Of a stretch of 64,000 nt of DNA, positions 49,228 to 53,619 are shown in pieces. A model generated the notes under the pieces. That model searched no databases. It saw only the letters and a list, made by a program, of their open reading frames with translations, and had not been told where the DNA came from. Location: the NCBI RefSeq assembly GCF_016903815.1, contig NZ_CP069973.1. One strand, 5' to 3'. The position numbers and the translations under genes were made by a program. Positions within the stretch are counted from its first letter, which is position 1; the number at the start of each line of letters is the position of its first letter. Source of the stretch: Escherichia coli. GTDB lineage: Bacteria; Pseudomonadota; Gammaproteobacteria; Enterobacterales; Enterobacteriaceae.

Positions 49228-49488
49228 TTACTTATAAATTACCGCAGTACCGCTTAATTTATTGTTGTTGGTGGCAGAAGTGATGCTGTATCCACTCGCC
49301 CCAGCTGCCGCAGCTTTCTCAGCCAGTTTCGCTTCCAGGGCATCGAGGGTGGATGCGCCATCGGCAGAAACCACGCCGATTTTATTCATGTTCTGTGCCT
49401 GGGATGCCGTTACCGGTTCCGCGGCAAACACGCCAAATGACAGAGTTGAAAGAGCCATAGCAGCAACAACAGTATTGATAGTTTTCAT
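49228..49488 (-). CDS. ybiJ: DUF1471 (YhcN-family) small periplasmic protein
   Basis: 86 aa ORF with signal peptide, C-terminal ...GTAVIYK. Confidence 0.93.
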   Translation of the reverse strand: MKTINTVVAAMALSTLSFGVFAAEPVTASQAQNMNKIGVVSADGASTLDALEAKLAEKAAAAGASGYSITSATNNNKLSGTAVIYK

Positions 49489-49752
49489 AATTAATCTCTC
49501 GCAGGTGATTTTTGTATAAGTGACGTTGTTTCGTCGATGTGATGAGTATCACGTTTTTTTTCGAGAGATAAAATCGAAGAGAATTGACCACCTTGTTCAA
49601 ATAAATTGATTGATATCTAACATACTGATAATCCATTTATTTGTTGAACTTATGGACTTGTTTTATGCAGCGTGGCAGTCACGAAAGCGTTAAAGGCACG
49701 GAATGCCACGCAAAATACAAATTATACTCGCTATACATCCCGCCAGTTGTAG

Positions 49753-50019
49753 TTAACGTAACTGGCTGTCTTTCGAACCTCTGCGATTATATCCTGTATA
49801 AGCTGGTTTTTGTAAATCTTTCTCCTGCTGACAATGAATGCATAAGCGCACGCCAGGAATGGCTTCCCGACGGGCCTGTGGGATAGGTGCGCCGCACTCT
49901 TCACATTCATACAGGCTTTCACCACGCGGAATTTCACCCCGAGCGCGGGCAATCGCATCTTCAATTGTACTGTTGATCTGTTCGTTGACGGCGTCATCGT
50001 TAGCCCAACCGGATGCCAT
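49753..50019 (-). CDS. ybiI: DksA/TraR-family C4 zinc-finger protein
   Basis: 88 aa ORF with CxxC-N17-CxxC (CEECG...CIHC). Confidence 0.93.
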   Translation of the reverse strand: MASGWANDDAVNEQINSTIEDAIARARGEIPRGESLYECEECGAPIPQARREAIPGVRLCIHCQQEKDLQKPAYTGYNRRGSKDSQLR

Positions 50020-50092
50020 ATCGTCCTCCCCATATCAATACTTGTACAGTTAAGTGTAGCTAATATAGGGACGAACTCGGGCAGTTCAAGCG

Positions 50093-50770
50093 TCAGATCT
50101 CCGACCATTCCCGCAGCAGATTATGATAAAGATTGAGCAGCGACAGGATCTCTTCACTTTCGCCGTAGCGGCTTTTCAGCGACTGAATATTGTTGTCCAG
50201 TTCAAACAGCATGGCGCGCTTTTTATCATCACGGATCATCGACTGGATCCACATAAATGATGCCACTCGTACGCCGCGGGTTACGGGTGTCACGCAATGC
50301 AAGCTGCTGGAGGGATACAACACCAGATCGCCTGCCGGGAGTTTTATCCGATGTTGCCCGAAGGTGTCATTAACGACCAGTTCGCCGCCGTCGTAGCTTT
50401 CTGGATCGCTTAAAAACAGCGTGGCAGAAAGGTCAGTGCGCATCCAGCCGTTTTGTAGATGGCTGCGTACTGCGCCATCCACATGAAAACCATAGGTTTC
50501 ATTGTTCTGATAGCGATTAAACAGCGGCGTGGAAAGGGTACGCGGCAAGGCCGCGGCAAAGAACAAAGCATGTTGGTTAACCGCGTTCAGCACCTCATTT
50601 TGCAGGGCGGCGTATAACGTGCTGCGGGTGTCTACCTGTTGATTGTTCTTAACTTGCGCACCTTGTGCGCCGGTGGTGACGCGTCCATCAACCCATTCGG
50701 CTTGTTCCAGTTGTTCGCGAAACCGGGCGACGTCCTGTGGCGATAACACGCCGGGAATGTGGTACATCAT
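50093..50770 (-). CDS. ybiX: Fe(II)/2-oxoglutarate-dependent (PKHD-type) hydroxylase
   Basis: ORF track 237 aa; internal ATG ([14 protein letters not shown]) gives 225 aa. Confidence 0.9.
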
Positions 50771-50811
50771 ACAAGTTCTCCAAAAAGTGGGGCCTGCGCC
50801 CCACATCTGAA

Positions 50812-53094
50812 TCAGAAATGCATATTGGCCGTGAGCAGGAAGGTTCTTGGCTCGCCCGGGTGATAACGGTAGCCGCTCTTGTTGATTGAGGCGACGTAAT
50901 CGGTATCAAACAGGTTGTAGACGTTTAGCTGGAAGTCGAGATTGCGATTAACCCGATACCCCAGTTTAGCGTCGGCGACCCAATAACCTTCGGTAAACGC
51001 TGGCGTTCCCACCGCGCCGTCAGAACCTTTATGCATACTGCCGATATAGCGTGCGCCCGCACCAACGGAAATATCATCGGTTGCCTGATACTGGCTCCAT
51101 AAGGTAAAGGCGTGCTCCGGGGTATACGGCAGCGATGAGGAACCATCCTGGGCAACATCTTTGCCGTTTTTGATGGTTGCTTTTTGCTGGGTATAGCCGC
51201 CAATCACCTGCCACGCGGGAGTGATATTCCCGGCCACGGATATCTCATAGCCTTCGACGCGTTTCTTACCGTATTGCGAGTAAGTTCCGTCATCATTTTG
51301 CTCAACTTCATTTTCGATATCAGTACGGAACAGCGCGGCGGTGAGCAACAGGCGTTTATCCAGAACCTGCCATTTGGTGCCAATCTCGCTGGTGTTGGCT
51401 TTTTGCGGTTTAAAATCGGTGCGGTTGGCACTGTTACCGCTGCCAGACTGCGCAAGGGCGAAGTTGTTGCCGCCCGGAGGCTGCTGGGAAACGGCATAGT
51501 TAATATAGACATTGCCGTTTTCCGTCAGGTGATAAAGCGCCCCGGCTTTCCAGTTCACCAGATTGCCCGACTTAGCGGTATCGACGGTGGTGACCGGAGA
51601 ACCTTTTGCCATGCCAGCAGGGCAGGTGATGGCACCGCGTCCGCTGCCGCCGCAGGCGGTGGCACTGTCATATTCAGTATGATAATTATCCAGACGGATC
51701 CCGCCGTTCAGCTCAAAATCACGGGTGATTTGCAGCGTATCGAAGGCGTAAATTGCGAAGGTATCCGTCTGACCATTGGCGTTTGCGCCGTTGCGCGTCA
51801 GGCCGCCGGGATGAATGCTGCTGTCAGGATGATAAATATTTACCGCAGGTAACGTCACCGGATTAACGCCGTAGTTAGTCTGCGTTTCACGGGTAAATTC
51901 CACGCCGGTACTGACATCATGACCGATAGAAGCGGTATAGAACGTCGAGGTCAGGTTGGTCTGGTTGGTGAGAATTTTATTACTCACATCTTTAGCATTC
52001 GCCGTGCGTGACCAGGTCCAGCTATTCACATCGCTGGTGGGCTGGGTAATATTCGACGCCCCACCCATAATCGCCGTCATCAGGTAATCCTGCTTCACGC
52101 GCGACCAACGGGTAGTATTGCGAATGGTGGTGTTATCGTTGATGTCGTGCTCAAAACGCATGGTAGCGGTGTCGGTGGTCGAATCGTCGTAATCGGAATC
52201 CGTGCCGTAAAAGTTATGCGTATCAACTTTTCCGGAATGATTCAGGGCCGCCGTTCCCGCAGATGGGGCAGAATAGCCCGGCAAACCGATGGTCGGAATG
52301 CCGCCGTCTGGCGTGTTGTGCTGGGTGACATGCAGATAATTAAGATACAAACGATTCGCTGTACCAAGGCCAAAAGCGACAGAAGGGGCGATGCCGTAAC
52401 GCTCATTTTTGACTTTGTCGCGTCCGGCATCGTGCGTTTTTTCGCCCATCACATTCAGGCGCGCCGCGGTGGTATCACCAATGACCTGATTGACGTCCAG
52501 TGTGCCGCGGCGGAACCAGGCGCTACCAATACTGGCGGAGGCGTCAATGCCGGAATCATTGCGCGGCTGCTTGCTGATCATATTGATCGAGCCTGTCGGT
52601 GCGCTGCGCCCGTAGTCGGTGCCGGACGGCCCTTTAATCACTTCGACCTGCTCGGTATTGAAGGTGTCGCGCGAGACGCTGCCGATATCGCGAATGCCAT
52701 CAATATAAATACTGTTAGAGGTATCAGCACCGCGCATATAAATGGCGTCGCCAGTGGTGGAGTTACCGTTCTCACCCGCAAAAAACGCACCCACGCCGGG
52801 GACGTTTTTGAGTGCGTCGGTAAGGTTGGTTGCGCCCTGATCTTTAATCACTTGTTCAGAAATCACCGTCATCGTGCGGGTAGTATCCGCTACCGGACGC
52901 GAGAATTTCGGATCTGCAGATTGTTGTGGCGCATAAAGCGAAGGCGTTGATGCTTCGACAACCAGCGTGTCATCCGCGTTAGTTTGCCCTTCGGCGGCGA
53001 GTGCCTGAGCCACAGGCGTGATGCCAATACAAAGACCGGCAAAGAACGTGAGCGAATGAAATTGTCTGGCAGGGAAATTGCGATTGTTTTCCAT
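50812..53094 (-). CDS. fiu: TonB-dependent catecholate siderophore receptor
   Basis: 760 aa ORF with signal peptide, TonB box region and C-terminal aromatic residue (…ANMHF). Confidence 0.97.
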
Positions 53095-53198
53095 TTTGCA
53101 GGTGACTTTTTCTTATATGTTGAAATTTTCACTGCCACGAGAAAGCCTCTCTGCGGATGCGATGCCACTGTTAATCTCGTGATAGCGCTCGTGCAAGT

Positions 53199-53223
53199 GA
53201 TAATAATTTTGATAAGCATTATC
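53199..53223 (-). promoter_or_regulatory. Fur box upstream of fiu
   Basis: Minus-strand GATAATGCTTATCAAAATTATTATC, resembling GATAATGATAATCATTATC consensus, about 100 bp upstream of fiu start. Confidence 0.55.
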
Positions 53224-53358
53224 ACTTGGCGCGATTTTCTATCACCCATTGTGCGAAAAAGAAATACATTTATTTACATTACGTTCATATTTGATGTTTT
53301 TTGATTACAAAACAGGCGAAAACTGCATCCAGAGGCGAATGCAGTTACGTTGGTGGGG

Positions 53359-53619
53359 TTATTTGTAGATGGTTGCAGTACCGAACATCTGGTCATTTCC
53401 GCCTGCGGAATTAATGACATAACCTTTCGCGCCTTGCTCGCGCGCTTTTTCTGCCAGTTTATCCTCCAGATCGCTTAGGTTTGATGCGCCAGTTGCCGAA
53501 ACGGTACCGGCGGGCCGTAGCTGACCGCTGTCCAGGTTACTCATCGGTTGCGCGGCATAAGCCGTGAGAGAGATTCCGCTCAGGACGGTGGCAATCAGTA
53601 GTGTGAGGCACTTTTTCAT
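53359..53619 (-). CDS. mcbA: DUF1471 (YhcN-family) periplasmic protein
   Basis: ORF track 134 aa; internal ATG (MKKCLTLLIATVLSG, GAGGATG SD) gives 86 aa; C-terminal ...GTATIYK, paralog of ybiJ. Confidence 0.88.
   Translation of the reverse strand: MKKCLTLLIATVLSGISLTAYAAQPMSNLDSGQLRPAGTVSATGASNLSDLEDKLAEKAREQGAKGYVINSAGGNDQMFGTATIYK

What the first reader, a model, noticed from the sequence alone, without database searches (positions are those of the whole stretch)
49228..53619. Two DUF1471 paralogs (ybiJ and mcbA) bracket the ybiI–ybiX–fiu iron-uptake block
Both are 86 aa secreted proteins with near-identical C-terminal motifs (…GTAVIYK versus …GTATIYK) on the same strand about 4 kb apart, suggesting a local duplication flanking the Fur-regulated ybiX-fiu unit.
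Basis: seen in the sequence. Interest (0 to 1): 0.2.

Follow-up and report, generated by a model that had tools for sequence, protein, structure and literature searches.

The report
Old DUF1471 gene pair around fiu
Two already-annotated E. coli genes for small secreted stress proteins (ybiJ and mcbA) are real but very old relatives that were neighbours before the iron-uptake genes fiu-ybiX came to lie between them, so this is ordinary, known gene-family biology.

Summary
The window is E. coli chromosome. ybiJ (49228-49488, -) and mcbA (53359-53619, -) each encode an 86-aa PF07338/DUF1471 protein. They are 47% identical end to end without gaps, and ybiI, ybiX and fiu lie between them.

- **Age:** no DNA similarity survives outside the coding regions, and third-codon-position identity is 30%. 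Any duplication is ancient.
- **Closest relative:** BhsA, 330 kb away, is as close to each protein as they are to each other (47% and 44%). Neighbour-joining bootstraps cannot resolve the YbiJ/McbA/BhsA trio.
- **Position, in favour:** Enterobacter, Lelliottia and Trabulsiella have mcbA-ybiI-ybiJ with no fiu-ybiX. Pluralibacter and Scandinavium have mcbA directly next to ybiJ.
- **Position, against "flanking":** fiu-ybiX is an ancient two-gene module found without DUF1471 neighbours outside Enterobacteriaceae.

The pair therefore predates, or is independent of, the iron module. That module sits exactly between the mcbA terminator and the ybiI promoter. The only strong Fur-box array lies upstream of fiu, not of mcbA or ybiJ.

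The genes, the family and the paralogy are all published. Interest is low.

The parts
49228..49488 (-). ybiJ CDS: 86-aa DUF1471 (YhcN/BhsA/McbA family) secreted protein
   Evidence: ORF. PF07338 at 64.8 bits. Annotated ybiJ in identical RefSeq genomes. The positional orthologue is present in every Enterobacteriaceae locus examined.
49096..49227 (-). ybiJ 3'UTR with structured hairpins and an intrinsic terminator (GCCCGTCC...GGACGGGC + T8). It corresponds to the K-12 region annotated as sRNA ZbiJ.
   Evidence: Terminator scan. RNA fold -42 kcal/mol, z=-3.1. Sequence identical to the K-12 region carrying the zbiJ/ybiE annotation.
49489..49752 (-). ybiI-ybiJ intergenic region (264 bp, AT-rich): presumed promoter region of ybiJ
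   Evidence: GC 0.44. No alignable similarity to the mcbA upstream region. Best Fur-box match there has 6 of 19 mismatches. Promoter function is inferred.
49753..50019 (-). ybiI CDS: 88-aa DksA/TraR-type C4 zinc-finger protein. It is part of the older mcbA-ybiI-ybiJ neighbourhood.
   Evidence: PF01258 at 47 bits. Present next to ybiJ in Salmonella, Enterobacter, Lelliottia, Trabulsiella, Kosakonia and Phytobacter, which lack fiu-ybiX.
50093..50770 (-). ybiX CDS: 225-aa Fe(II)/2OG PKHD-type hydroxylase, partner of fiu
   Evidence: PF13640 + PF18331. Found downstream of a Fiu-like TonB-dependent receptor gene (adjacent or within about 1.3 kb) in 79 of the 80 loci retrieved across Proteobacteria; in one the receptor survives only as a 3' remnant. 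Literature: PMC12004947.
50812..53094 (-). fiu CDS: 760-aa TonB-dependent catecholate siderophore receptor
   Evidence: Plug + TonB_dep_Rec_b-barrel domains. Annotation.
53193..53229 (-). Fur-box array and sigma-70-like promoter upstream of fiu
   Evidence: Best match to the 19-bp Fur consensus in the whole 64-kb window (4 mismatches), with overlapping 6-bp-phased matches at 53193, 53199, 53205 and 53211. Promoter-like site at 53245-53218.
53319..53344 (-). Putative mcbA terminator hairpin (CTGCAT-N10-ATGCAG followed by TTTT), which separates mcbA from the fiu promoter
   Evidence: Read from the sequence. The hairpin is conserved after mcbA in Enterobacter, Lelliottia and Leclercia. The loop is too long for the scan, so terminator function is inferred.
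53359..53619 (-). mcbA (ybiM) CDS: 86-aa DUF1471 periplasmic protein
   Evidence: ORF with its start at the internal ATG. PF07338 at 69.8 bits. Annotation. Orthologues are 56-65% identical in genera without fiu. Absent without remnant in Salmonella, some Klebsiella, some Kluyvera, Kosakonia and Phytobacter.
53620..53894 (-). mcbA-rlmF divergent intergenic region: presumed mcbA promoter (AT-rich, contains an ATATAT stretch)
   Evidence: Sequence. No Fur box better than 6 mismatches. McbR repression of mcbA is from the literature (Zhang et al. 2008, as cited in PMC4092069 and PMC13343897) and was not tested here.

Best explanation
ybiJ and mcbA are two anciently diverged members of the Enterobacterales-restricted DUF1471 (YhcN/BhsA/McbA) family of small Sec-exported envelope stress and biofilm proteins. 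Each is its own transcription unit with its own AT-rich upstream region and terminator.

They are the two ends of an old gene neighbourhood, rlmF | (flavin reductase) mcbA - ybiI - ybiJ | ybiB. This arrangement is found across Enterobacteriaceae and most likely began as a tandem duplication of one DUF1471 gene. That origin is inferred, not shown.

The Fur-controlled two-gene iron module fiu-ybiX is far older and far more widespread than DUF1471. It occupies the gap between the mcbA terminator and the ybiI promoter in Escherichia, Citrobacter, Klebsiella/Raoultella, Kluyvera, Leclercia, Silvania and Pseudocitrobacter, and it is missing from that gap in other genera. The bracketing seen in the window is thus a positional by-product, not a duplication made around the iron genes and not a functional unit with them.
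For: **Paralogy.** 47% identity over 86/86 residues, E=1e-22. Both match PF07338. The family profile matches the PDB DUF1471 entries 2noc, 2ma4, 2jna and 2ma8.

**Ancient divergence.** DNA similarity is limited to a 59-nt in-frame coding stretch (71%) and the stop-proximal 25 nt, with none in the flanks. Codon-position identity is 59/59/30%. Both positional classes form separate orthologue clades across genera, with 70-91% bootstrap.

**The pair is independent of fiu-ybiX.**
- Enterobacter cloacae, Lelliottia and Trabulsiella: mcbA-ybiI-ybiJ.
- Pluralibacter and Scandinavium: mcbA directly next to ybiJ.
- Salmonella, Kosakonia and Phytobacter: ybiI-ybiJ only.
- The upstream genes are true McbA orthologues: 96-110 bits to McbA against 60 or less to any other paralogue.

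**fiu-ybiX is an independent module.** It has no DUF1471, rlmF or ybiB neighbour within 10 kb in Pantoea, Rouxiella, Serratia, Tatumella or about 35 non-enterobacterial genomes. It is described as a co-conserved, Fur-regulated pair in PMC12004947.

**Junctions.** The Enterobacter mcbA-ybiI spacer matches the E. coli mcbA terminator on its left and the ybiI -10 region on its right.

**Loss caught in progress.** Citrobacter sp. Awk 4 has a 2357-bp deletion that removes fiu codons 1-718, and its ybiX is frameshifted.

**Fur box.** It occurs only upstream of fiu.

**Family habit.** DUF1471 genes are known to occur as adjacent pairs (yjfN-yjfO, yhcN-ycfR-like; PMC4092069), and they are significantly clustered in K-12.
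Against: - The tandem-duplication origin is not demonstrated. YbiJ-BhsA (47%, score 180) and McbA-BhsA (44%, score 170) are as close as YbiJ-McbA (47%, score 175).
- Neighbour-joining bootstraps give J+M 9-24%, M+B 28-38% and J+B 16-30%.
- With family-wide representatives the backbone collapses to 0-5% support.
- Only a slight edge favours YbiJ. A McbA profile scores YbiJ representatives at 85-88 bits against 80-84 bits for BhsA-type proteins.
- In most genera ybiI lies between the two genes, so strict tandem adjacency is seen only in Pluralibacter and Scandinavium.
- Whether fiu-ybiX was inserted once and then lost repeatedly, or spread by recombination, cannot be decided from about 45 loci without a species tree.
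- No syntenic single-copy ancestor was found outside Enterobacteriaceae.
Confidence: 0.72

Rival explanations
1. mcbA did not arise from ybiJ in place. It derives from a bhsA-like (or other) DUF1471 paralogue and came to lie near ybiJ by translocation or by chance. The two are then neighbours but not sister genes.
For: McbA+BhsA is the grouping recovered most often (28-38% bootstrap, and present in the NJ tree for two of three column sets). Salmonella's best match to McbA is YcfR/BhsA (PMC4092069). mcbA is patchy, absent without remnant in several genera, whereas ybiJ is always present. One pair within 4.2 kb among 9 genes has a chance probability of about 6%.
Against: The support is just as weak as for the alternative groupings. 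mcbA always sits at the same place and in the same orientation as ybiJ across at least 12 genera. The family typically expands by adjacent copies (PMC4092069). The McbA profile scores YbiJ slightly above BhsA.
Confidence: 0.2
2. A recent segmental duplication, or a composite-element-like structure, in which two copies of one gene flank and mobilise the ybiI-ybiX-fiu block. This is the literal reading of the first-stage note.
For: The two genes have the same length, the same strand and an ungapped alignment, and they sit one on each side of the block.
Against: There is no DNA repeat beyond conserved coding motifs. Third-position identity is 30%. The left and right junctions of the block share nothing (score 13 against a shuffled mean of 15). 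The two genes form separate orthologue clades conserved across genera. The arrangement is present in 5416 of 5426 E. coli genomes. fiu-ybiX elsewhere has no such flanks.
Confidence: 0.02
3. The two DUF1471 proteins are functional periplasmic accessories of the Fiu/YbiX catecholate-iron system and are kept beside it by selection.
For: Physical proximity in E. coli. ybiI, which lies between them, co-varies with the Fur-1 iModulon (PMC10164565) and is serum-induced with Fur genes (PMC4145685).
Against: The pair persists without fiu-ybiX in at least five genera, and fiu-ybiX persists without the pair in most of its range. There is no Fur box near either DUF1471 promoter. A conserved hairpin that looks like a terminator separates mcbA from the fiu promoter. 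Published phenotypes concern biofilm, colanic acid, acid stress and envelope stress (PMC4092069; bioRxiv 10.1101/2025.02.11.637708).
Confidence: 0.03

Closest known systems
DUF1471 / YhcN / BhsA-McbA family (Pfam PF07338), as described by Eletsky et al. 2014 (PMC4092069)
   Same: Both proteins are full-length single-domain members. They are about 86 aa, have an N-terminal hydrophobic signal ending in AxA (FAA|E, YAA|Q), contain the conserved G-x-(V/I)-S ... L-x-x-K-A ... G-T-A-x-I-Y-K core, and are restricted to Enterobacterales. They are the annotated ybiJ and mcbA/ybiM genes.
   Different: Nothing differs at the protein level. The window's proteins are identical to the K-12 proteins. That paper lists adjacent pairs (yjfN-yjfO, yhcN-ycfR-like) but, in the passages read, does not mention the ybiJ/mcbA linkage.
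Adjacent DUF1471 paralogue pairs: yjfN-bsmA(yjfO) in E. coli, and yhcN-STM3362 (ycfR-like) in Salmonella
   Same: Same family, same strand, interpreted as products of local duplication followed by divergence. In Pluralibacter and Scandinavium, mcbA and ybiJ are likewise directly adjacent.
   Different: In E. coli the ybiJ/mcbA pair is separated by 3.9 kb of unrelated genes (ybiI, ybiX, fiu). In most genera at least ybiI intervenes.
fiu-ybiX / piuA-piuC / cciT-cciO module (TonB-dependent receptor + Fe(II)/2OG dioxygenase; PMC12004947)
   Same: The central two genes of the finding are this module: an adjacent receptor and dioxygenase with a Fur box upstream.
   Different: The module itself has no DUF1471 component. 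The flanking paralogues are a feature of the Enterobacteriaceae insertion site only.

Membership tests
DUF1471 (PF07338, YhcN/BhsA/McbA family) | Match to the Pfam PF07338 domain above the gathering score | tested here: met
   YbiJ 64.8 bits and McbA 69.8 bits against a cut-off of 27. Both cover the profile 1-55/55 at residues 34-86.
DUF1471 (PF07338, YhcN/BhsA/McbA family) | Small (about 85-90 aa) single-domain protein with an N-terminal Sec signal peptide | tested here: met
   Both are 86 aa, with an MK(T/K) start, a hydrophobic stretch of about 20 aa, and FAA|E or YAA|Q. No signal-peptide predictor was available, and cleavage itself is not testable here.
DUF1471 (PF07338, YhcN/BhsA/McbA family) | Sequence relatives with solved DUF1471 structures | tested here: met
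   The family profile hits PDB 2noc (E=8e-26), 2ma4 (1.5e-21), 2jna (3.6e-10) and 2ma8 (2.7e-5). The fold of YbiJ and McbA themselves was not predicted here.
DUF1471 (PF07338, YhcN/BhsA/McbA family) | Taxonomic restriction to Enterobacterales | tested here: inconclusive
   Nearly all named hits are Enterobacterales genera, apart from one MAG-derived label. Contexts of distant representatives are enterobacterial-type genomes.
Tandem (local) gene duplicates | Homologous genes, same orientation, adjacent or nearly so in the ancestral arrangement | tested here: met
   Directly adjacent in Pluralibacter and Scandinavium. Separated only by ybiI in Enterobacter, Lelliottia and Trabulsiella. Always co-oriented.
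Tandem (local) gene duplicates | The two copies are each other's closest paralogues (sister clades) | tested here: inconclusive
   Pairwise: J-M 47%, J-B 47%, M-B 44%. NJ bootstrap: J+M 9-24%, M+B 28-38%, J+B 16-30%. The family-wide tree is unresolved. The McbA profile scores YbiJ a few bits above BhsA.
Recent segmental duplication / repeat-flanked mobile block | Nucleotide-level direct repeats extending beyond the coding motifs, or matching junctions | tested here: not met
   Only a 59-nt (71%) and a 25-nt (72%) in-frame coding match were found, and the flanks do not align. Third-position identity is 30%. Junction comparison falls below the shuffled mean.
Fur regulon (for mcbA and ybiJ) | Fur box in the promoter region | tested here: not met
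   The best sites near mcbA (53764) and ybiJ (49621) have 6 of 19 mismatches, which is background level. The fiu promoter has a 4-mismatch site within a phased array. Expression was not tested.

The most novel reading that the evidence does not exclude
mcbA-ybiI-ybiJ is a conserved three-gene envelope-stress cluster in Enterobacteriaceae, in which the DksA/TraR-type zinc-finger protein YbiI acts together with, or regulates, the flanking DUF1471 genes. Placing fiu-ybiX immediately upstream of ybiI in the Escherichia/Citrobacter/Klebsiella lineages then brought ybiI under Fur-dependent read-through. This would link iron starvation to a DUF1471 envelope response in those lineages only.
Probability: 0.12. 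Interest if true: 0.35.

Novelty: already known. Interest (0 to 1): 0.1.

Why it matters
It matters little. Both genes, their family, their paralogy and the Fur-regulated fiu-ybiX pair are annotated and published.

The modest added value is comparative. The work shows that the iron module sits inside an older mcbA-ybiI-ybiJ neighbourhood, and that fiu-ybiX can be lost cleanly from it. This warns against reading functional coupling, or a "flanking duplication", into the E. coli gene order. It also explains why Salmonella lacks McbA and Fiu together with YbiX but keeps ybiI-ybiJ. For anyone studying the still-unknown biochemical role of DUF1471 proteins, the conserved linkage with ybiI is a small lead.

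Tried and rejected
- **Flank alignment.** I aligned the 660-bp ybiJ and mcbA loci and searched for repeats. Nothing was found beyond coding motifs.
- **Neighbour-joining bootstrap trees.** I used 118 sequences (30 YbiJ-position, 34 McbA-position, 47 BhsA, 3 YhcN and outgroups) on full, mature and Pfam-domain columns. The trio is unresolved.
- **Adding family-wide representatives.** I added 50%-identity representatives from an exhaustive profile search. The backbone collapsed, because 63-86 columns cannot resolve it. No ML program was available.
- **Target-site duplication.** I looked for one or for junction repeats around fiu-ybiX. None was found.
- **mcbA pseudogene remnants.** I searched ten loci that lack mcbA. 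None was found.
- **Pre-duplication homologue.** I looked for a syntenic single-copy homologue outside Enterobacteriaceae through three distant representatives. All lie in unrelated contexts.
- **Strict Fur-box search.** A search allowing 3 mismatches or fewer found nothing in the window. A relaxed scan was needed.
- **Rfam.** No family reached threshold in 48900-54100.
- **Fold prediction.** Not run. Family membership was already unambiguous from Pfam and PDB sequence matches.
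Full report
**What is there**

The 5.1-kb stretch 48900-54000 is 100% identical to E. 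coli strain 7/2 and is present in 5416 of 5426 complete E. coli genomes. RefSeq annotates, all on the minus strand:
- ybiJ (49228-49488)
- ybiI (49753-50019)
- ybiX (50093-50770)
- fiu (50812-53094)
- mcbA (53359-53619)

These are flanked by hcxB (+) and rlmF (+). The ORF list reproduces the genes. For mcbA the mechanical ORF extends upstream to 53763, but the annotated 86-aa protein starts at the internal ATG at 53619.

Pfam assigns both small proteins to PF07338 (YdgH/BhsA/McbA-like, i.e. DUF1471) at 65-70 bits. It assigns ybiI to the DksA/TraR zinc-finger family, ybiX to 2OG-Fe(II) oxygenase + PKHD_C, and fiu to Plug + TonB-dependent barrel.

**How similar are the two proteins?**

BLASTP gives 40/86 identities (47%), no gaps, E=1e-22. 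The similarity runs through the signal peptide, the G-(T/V)-VSA-x-GAS-x-L core, the LE-x-KLAEKA helix and the GTA-x-IYK end. It is not confined to the C-terminal motif.

At the DNA level, only a 59-nt in-frame stretch (71%) and the last 25 nt (72%) are detectable as repeats, at a spacing of 4131 bp. The upstream and downstream regions do not align. Codon-position identities are 59/59/30%, so the third positions are at random level. The copies are ancient, and there is no sign of recent duplication or gene conversion.

**Are they each other's closest relatives?**

I fetched all nine annotated K-12 DUF1471 genes: yahO, ybiJ, mcbA, bhsA, ydgH, yhcN, yjfN, bsmA and yjfY. The pairwise comparisons were:

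| Pair | Identical/aligned | Score |
|---|---|---|
| YbiJ-McbA | 40/86 | 175 |
| YbiJ-BhsA | 40/85 | 180 |
| McbA-BhsA | 37/85 | 170 |
| YbiJ-YhcN | 39/86 | 157 |

bhsA lies 330 kb away. The three form an equidistant trio.

I then collected positional orthologues of both genes from about 35 Enterobacteriaceae loci, BhsA and YhcN orthologues from a protein search, and outgroups. Bootstrapped neighbour-joining trees on three column sets gave:
- Each orthologue group is monophyletic: YbiJ 70-91%, McbA 71-84%, BhsA 96-99%.
- A YbiJ+McbA+BhsA supergroup gets 48-58%.
- Inside it, YbiJ+McbA gets 9-24%, McbA+BhsA 28-38% and YbiJ+BhsA 16-30%.

An exhaustive profile search with a McbA alignment scored YbiJ representatives (85-88 bits) marginally above BhsA-type proteins (80-84 bits). 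It also revealed many intermediate subfamilies. When these were added, backbone support collapsed to 0-5%. Sequence alone cannot decide the sister relationship.

**What the neighbourhood says**

Using YbiX as an anchor in one genome per species, I mapped the neighbours by HMM and phmmer.

*Outside Enterobacteriaceae.* In 79 of the 80 loci a Fiu-like receptor ORF lies upstream of ybiX, directly adjacent in nearly all and about 0.8-1.3 kb away in two. In one of these (Citrobacter sp. Awk 4) only a 3' remnant of fiu is left; Tatumella sp. JGM91 has no receptor within 10 kb. This holds in Burkholderiales, Nitrosomonas, Methylophilus, Cellvibrionales, Aliarcobacter and a Rhodobacterales genome. It agrees with the published description of a co-conserved, Fur-regulated receptor/dioxygenase pair (PMC12004947). 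In those genomes, and in Pantoea, Rouxiella, Serratia and Tatumella, no DUF1471 gene, rlmF or ybiB lies within 10 kb.

*Within Enterobacteriaceae.* The order is ybiO, rlmF | (flavin reductase) mcbA, fiu, ybiX, (ybiI), ybiJ | (hcxB) ybiB. ybiJ is always present. mcbA is absent, without remnant, from some Klebsiella, Kluyvera and Pseudocitrobacter.

*Genera that lack fiu-ybiX.* I looked these up by their YbiJ orthologues:
- Enterobacter cloacae, Lelliottia: rlmF | mcbA-ybiI-ybiJ | ybiB
- Trabulsiella: flavin reductase-mcbA-ybiI-ybiJ
- Pluralibacter, Scandinavium: flavin reductase-mcbA-ybiJ (directly adjacent)
- Salmonella: ybiI-ybiJ
- Kosakonia, Phytobacter: flavin reductase-ybiI-ybiJ

The upstream DUF1471 genes in these genera are true McbA orthologues. 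They are 56-65% identical to E. coli McbA, scoring 96-110 bits against 60 or less for any other paralogue. The Salmonella pattern agrees with the published statement that Salmonella lacks a YbiM/McbA homologue (PMC4092069).

The linkage of mcbA and ybiJ is therefore independent of the iron genes.

**The junctions**

The 124-bp mcbA-ybiI spacer of Enterobacter matches E. coli on both sides:
- On its left it matches the hairpin just after mcbA (GATGCAGTTTTC).
- On its right it matches the region just upstream of ybiI (CCC(C/T)ATATT).

fiu-ybiX thus occupies exactly the gap between the mcbA terminator and the ybiI promoter. The left and right junctions of the module share no repeat.

One genome shows loss in progress. 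Citrobacter sp. Awk 4 has a 2357-bp deletion relative to Citrobacter sp. NCU1. It removes fiu codons 1-718, and ybiX is frameshifted.

With the loci in hand, I cannot decide between a single ancestral insertion followed by several losses and a spread by homologous recombination.

**Regulation**

The best match to the Fur consensus in the entire window is a phased array at 53193-53229. It overlaps a promoter-like site upstream of fiu. Sites near the mcbA and ybiJ promoters are at background level, with 6 of 19 mismatches.

ybiJ ends in a strong intrinsic terminator (49096-49117), preceded by a structured 3'UTR (z=-3.1). This corresponds to the K-12 sRNA annotation zbiJ.

From the literature:
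- fiu and ybiX are Fur targets, and ybiI co-varies with them in the Fur-1 iModulon (PMC10164565, PMC4145685).
- mcbA is repressed by McbR/YncC and affects colanic acid and biofilm (Zhang et al. 2008, cited in PMC4092069 and PMC13343897).
- YbiJ is described as a paralogue of McbA with an RcsF-like fold and is linked to envelope and acid stress (bioRxiv 10.1101/2025.02.11.637708).

None of this ties the DUF1471 genes to iron uptake.

**Conclusion**

The best-supported reading is that ybiJ and mcbA are ancient paralogues from an old mcbA-(ybiI)-ybiJ neighbourhood. This is consistent with the DUF1471 family's known habit of expanding by adjacent copies, and K-12 DUF1471 genes are significantly clustered.

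The tandem-duplication origin remains an inference from position, because the short sequences cannot separate YbiJ from BhsA as McbA's nearest relative. The fiu-ybiX module is an independent, much older unit that happens to lie between the two genes in E. coli and its allies.

A recent or block-flanking duplication and a functional coupling to iron uptake are both contradicted. Everything here is annotated and largely published, so novelty and interest are low.

Noticed in passing
window 44722-46873 (+): dinG is split into two overlapping ORFs (44722-45813 and 45728-46873) instead of one ORF of about 716 aa. This matches the 'frameshifted' dinG pseudogene annotation in the 100%-identical strain 7/2.
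   Followed up: partly
window 49205-49227, compared with K-12 locus L002 3555-3665: K-12 carries about 90 extra bases of REP-like palindromic sequence between the ybiJ stop codon and the 3'UTR hairpins, which this strain lacks. K-12 annotates the sRNA ZbiJ and the small ORF ybiE in the shared part, which is identical in the window.
   Followed up: partly
L049 9650-10700 (Citrobacter sp. Awk 4), compared with L017 7475-9831: A 2357-bp deletion removes fiu codons 1-718, and ybiX is frameshifted. mcbA, ybiI and ybiJ remain intact. This is a natural example of the iron module decaying out of the locus.
   Followed up: yes
L035 7110-7439 and L039 6850-7212 (Kluyvera genomosp. 3, K. georgiana): The McbA-position proteins in these Kluyvera are strongly diverged (...GSATLYE). 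Their signal sequences end in a Cys-containing, lipobox-like motif (LLATTTAC / LLVTSTTGC). This suggests lipoprotein variants, as in BsmA.
   Followed up: no
L030, L036, L041, L090, L092-L095 and others, between rlmF and mcbA/fiu: A 204-aa flavin reductase gene (PF01613) sits between rlmF and mcbA (or fiu) in Klebsiella, Raoultella, Kluyvera, Pluralibacter, Scandinavium, Trabulsiella, Kosakonia and Phytobacter. It is absent in Escherichia, Citrobacter, Leclercia and Enterobacter. Conversely, hcxB (ybiC) occurs only in the Escherichia and Citrobacter loci.
   Followed up: partly
window 50787-50804 (-): A GC-rich hairpin (GTGGGGC-GCAG-GCCCCAC) followed by a T-run lies in the 41-bp gap between the fiu stop and the ybiX start. 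It could be an internal attenuator or an RNA-stability element in the fiu-ybiX transcript.
   Followed up: no
protein P0001 (E. coli, single contig): A YbiJ variant of 114 aa carries a 28-residue internal tandem duplication (ASTLDALEAKLAEKAAAAGASGYSITS x2). It was the top hit of both protein searches.
   Followed up: no
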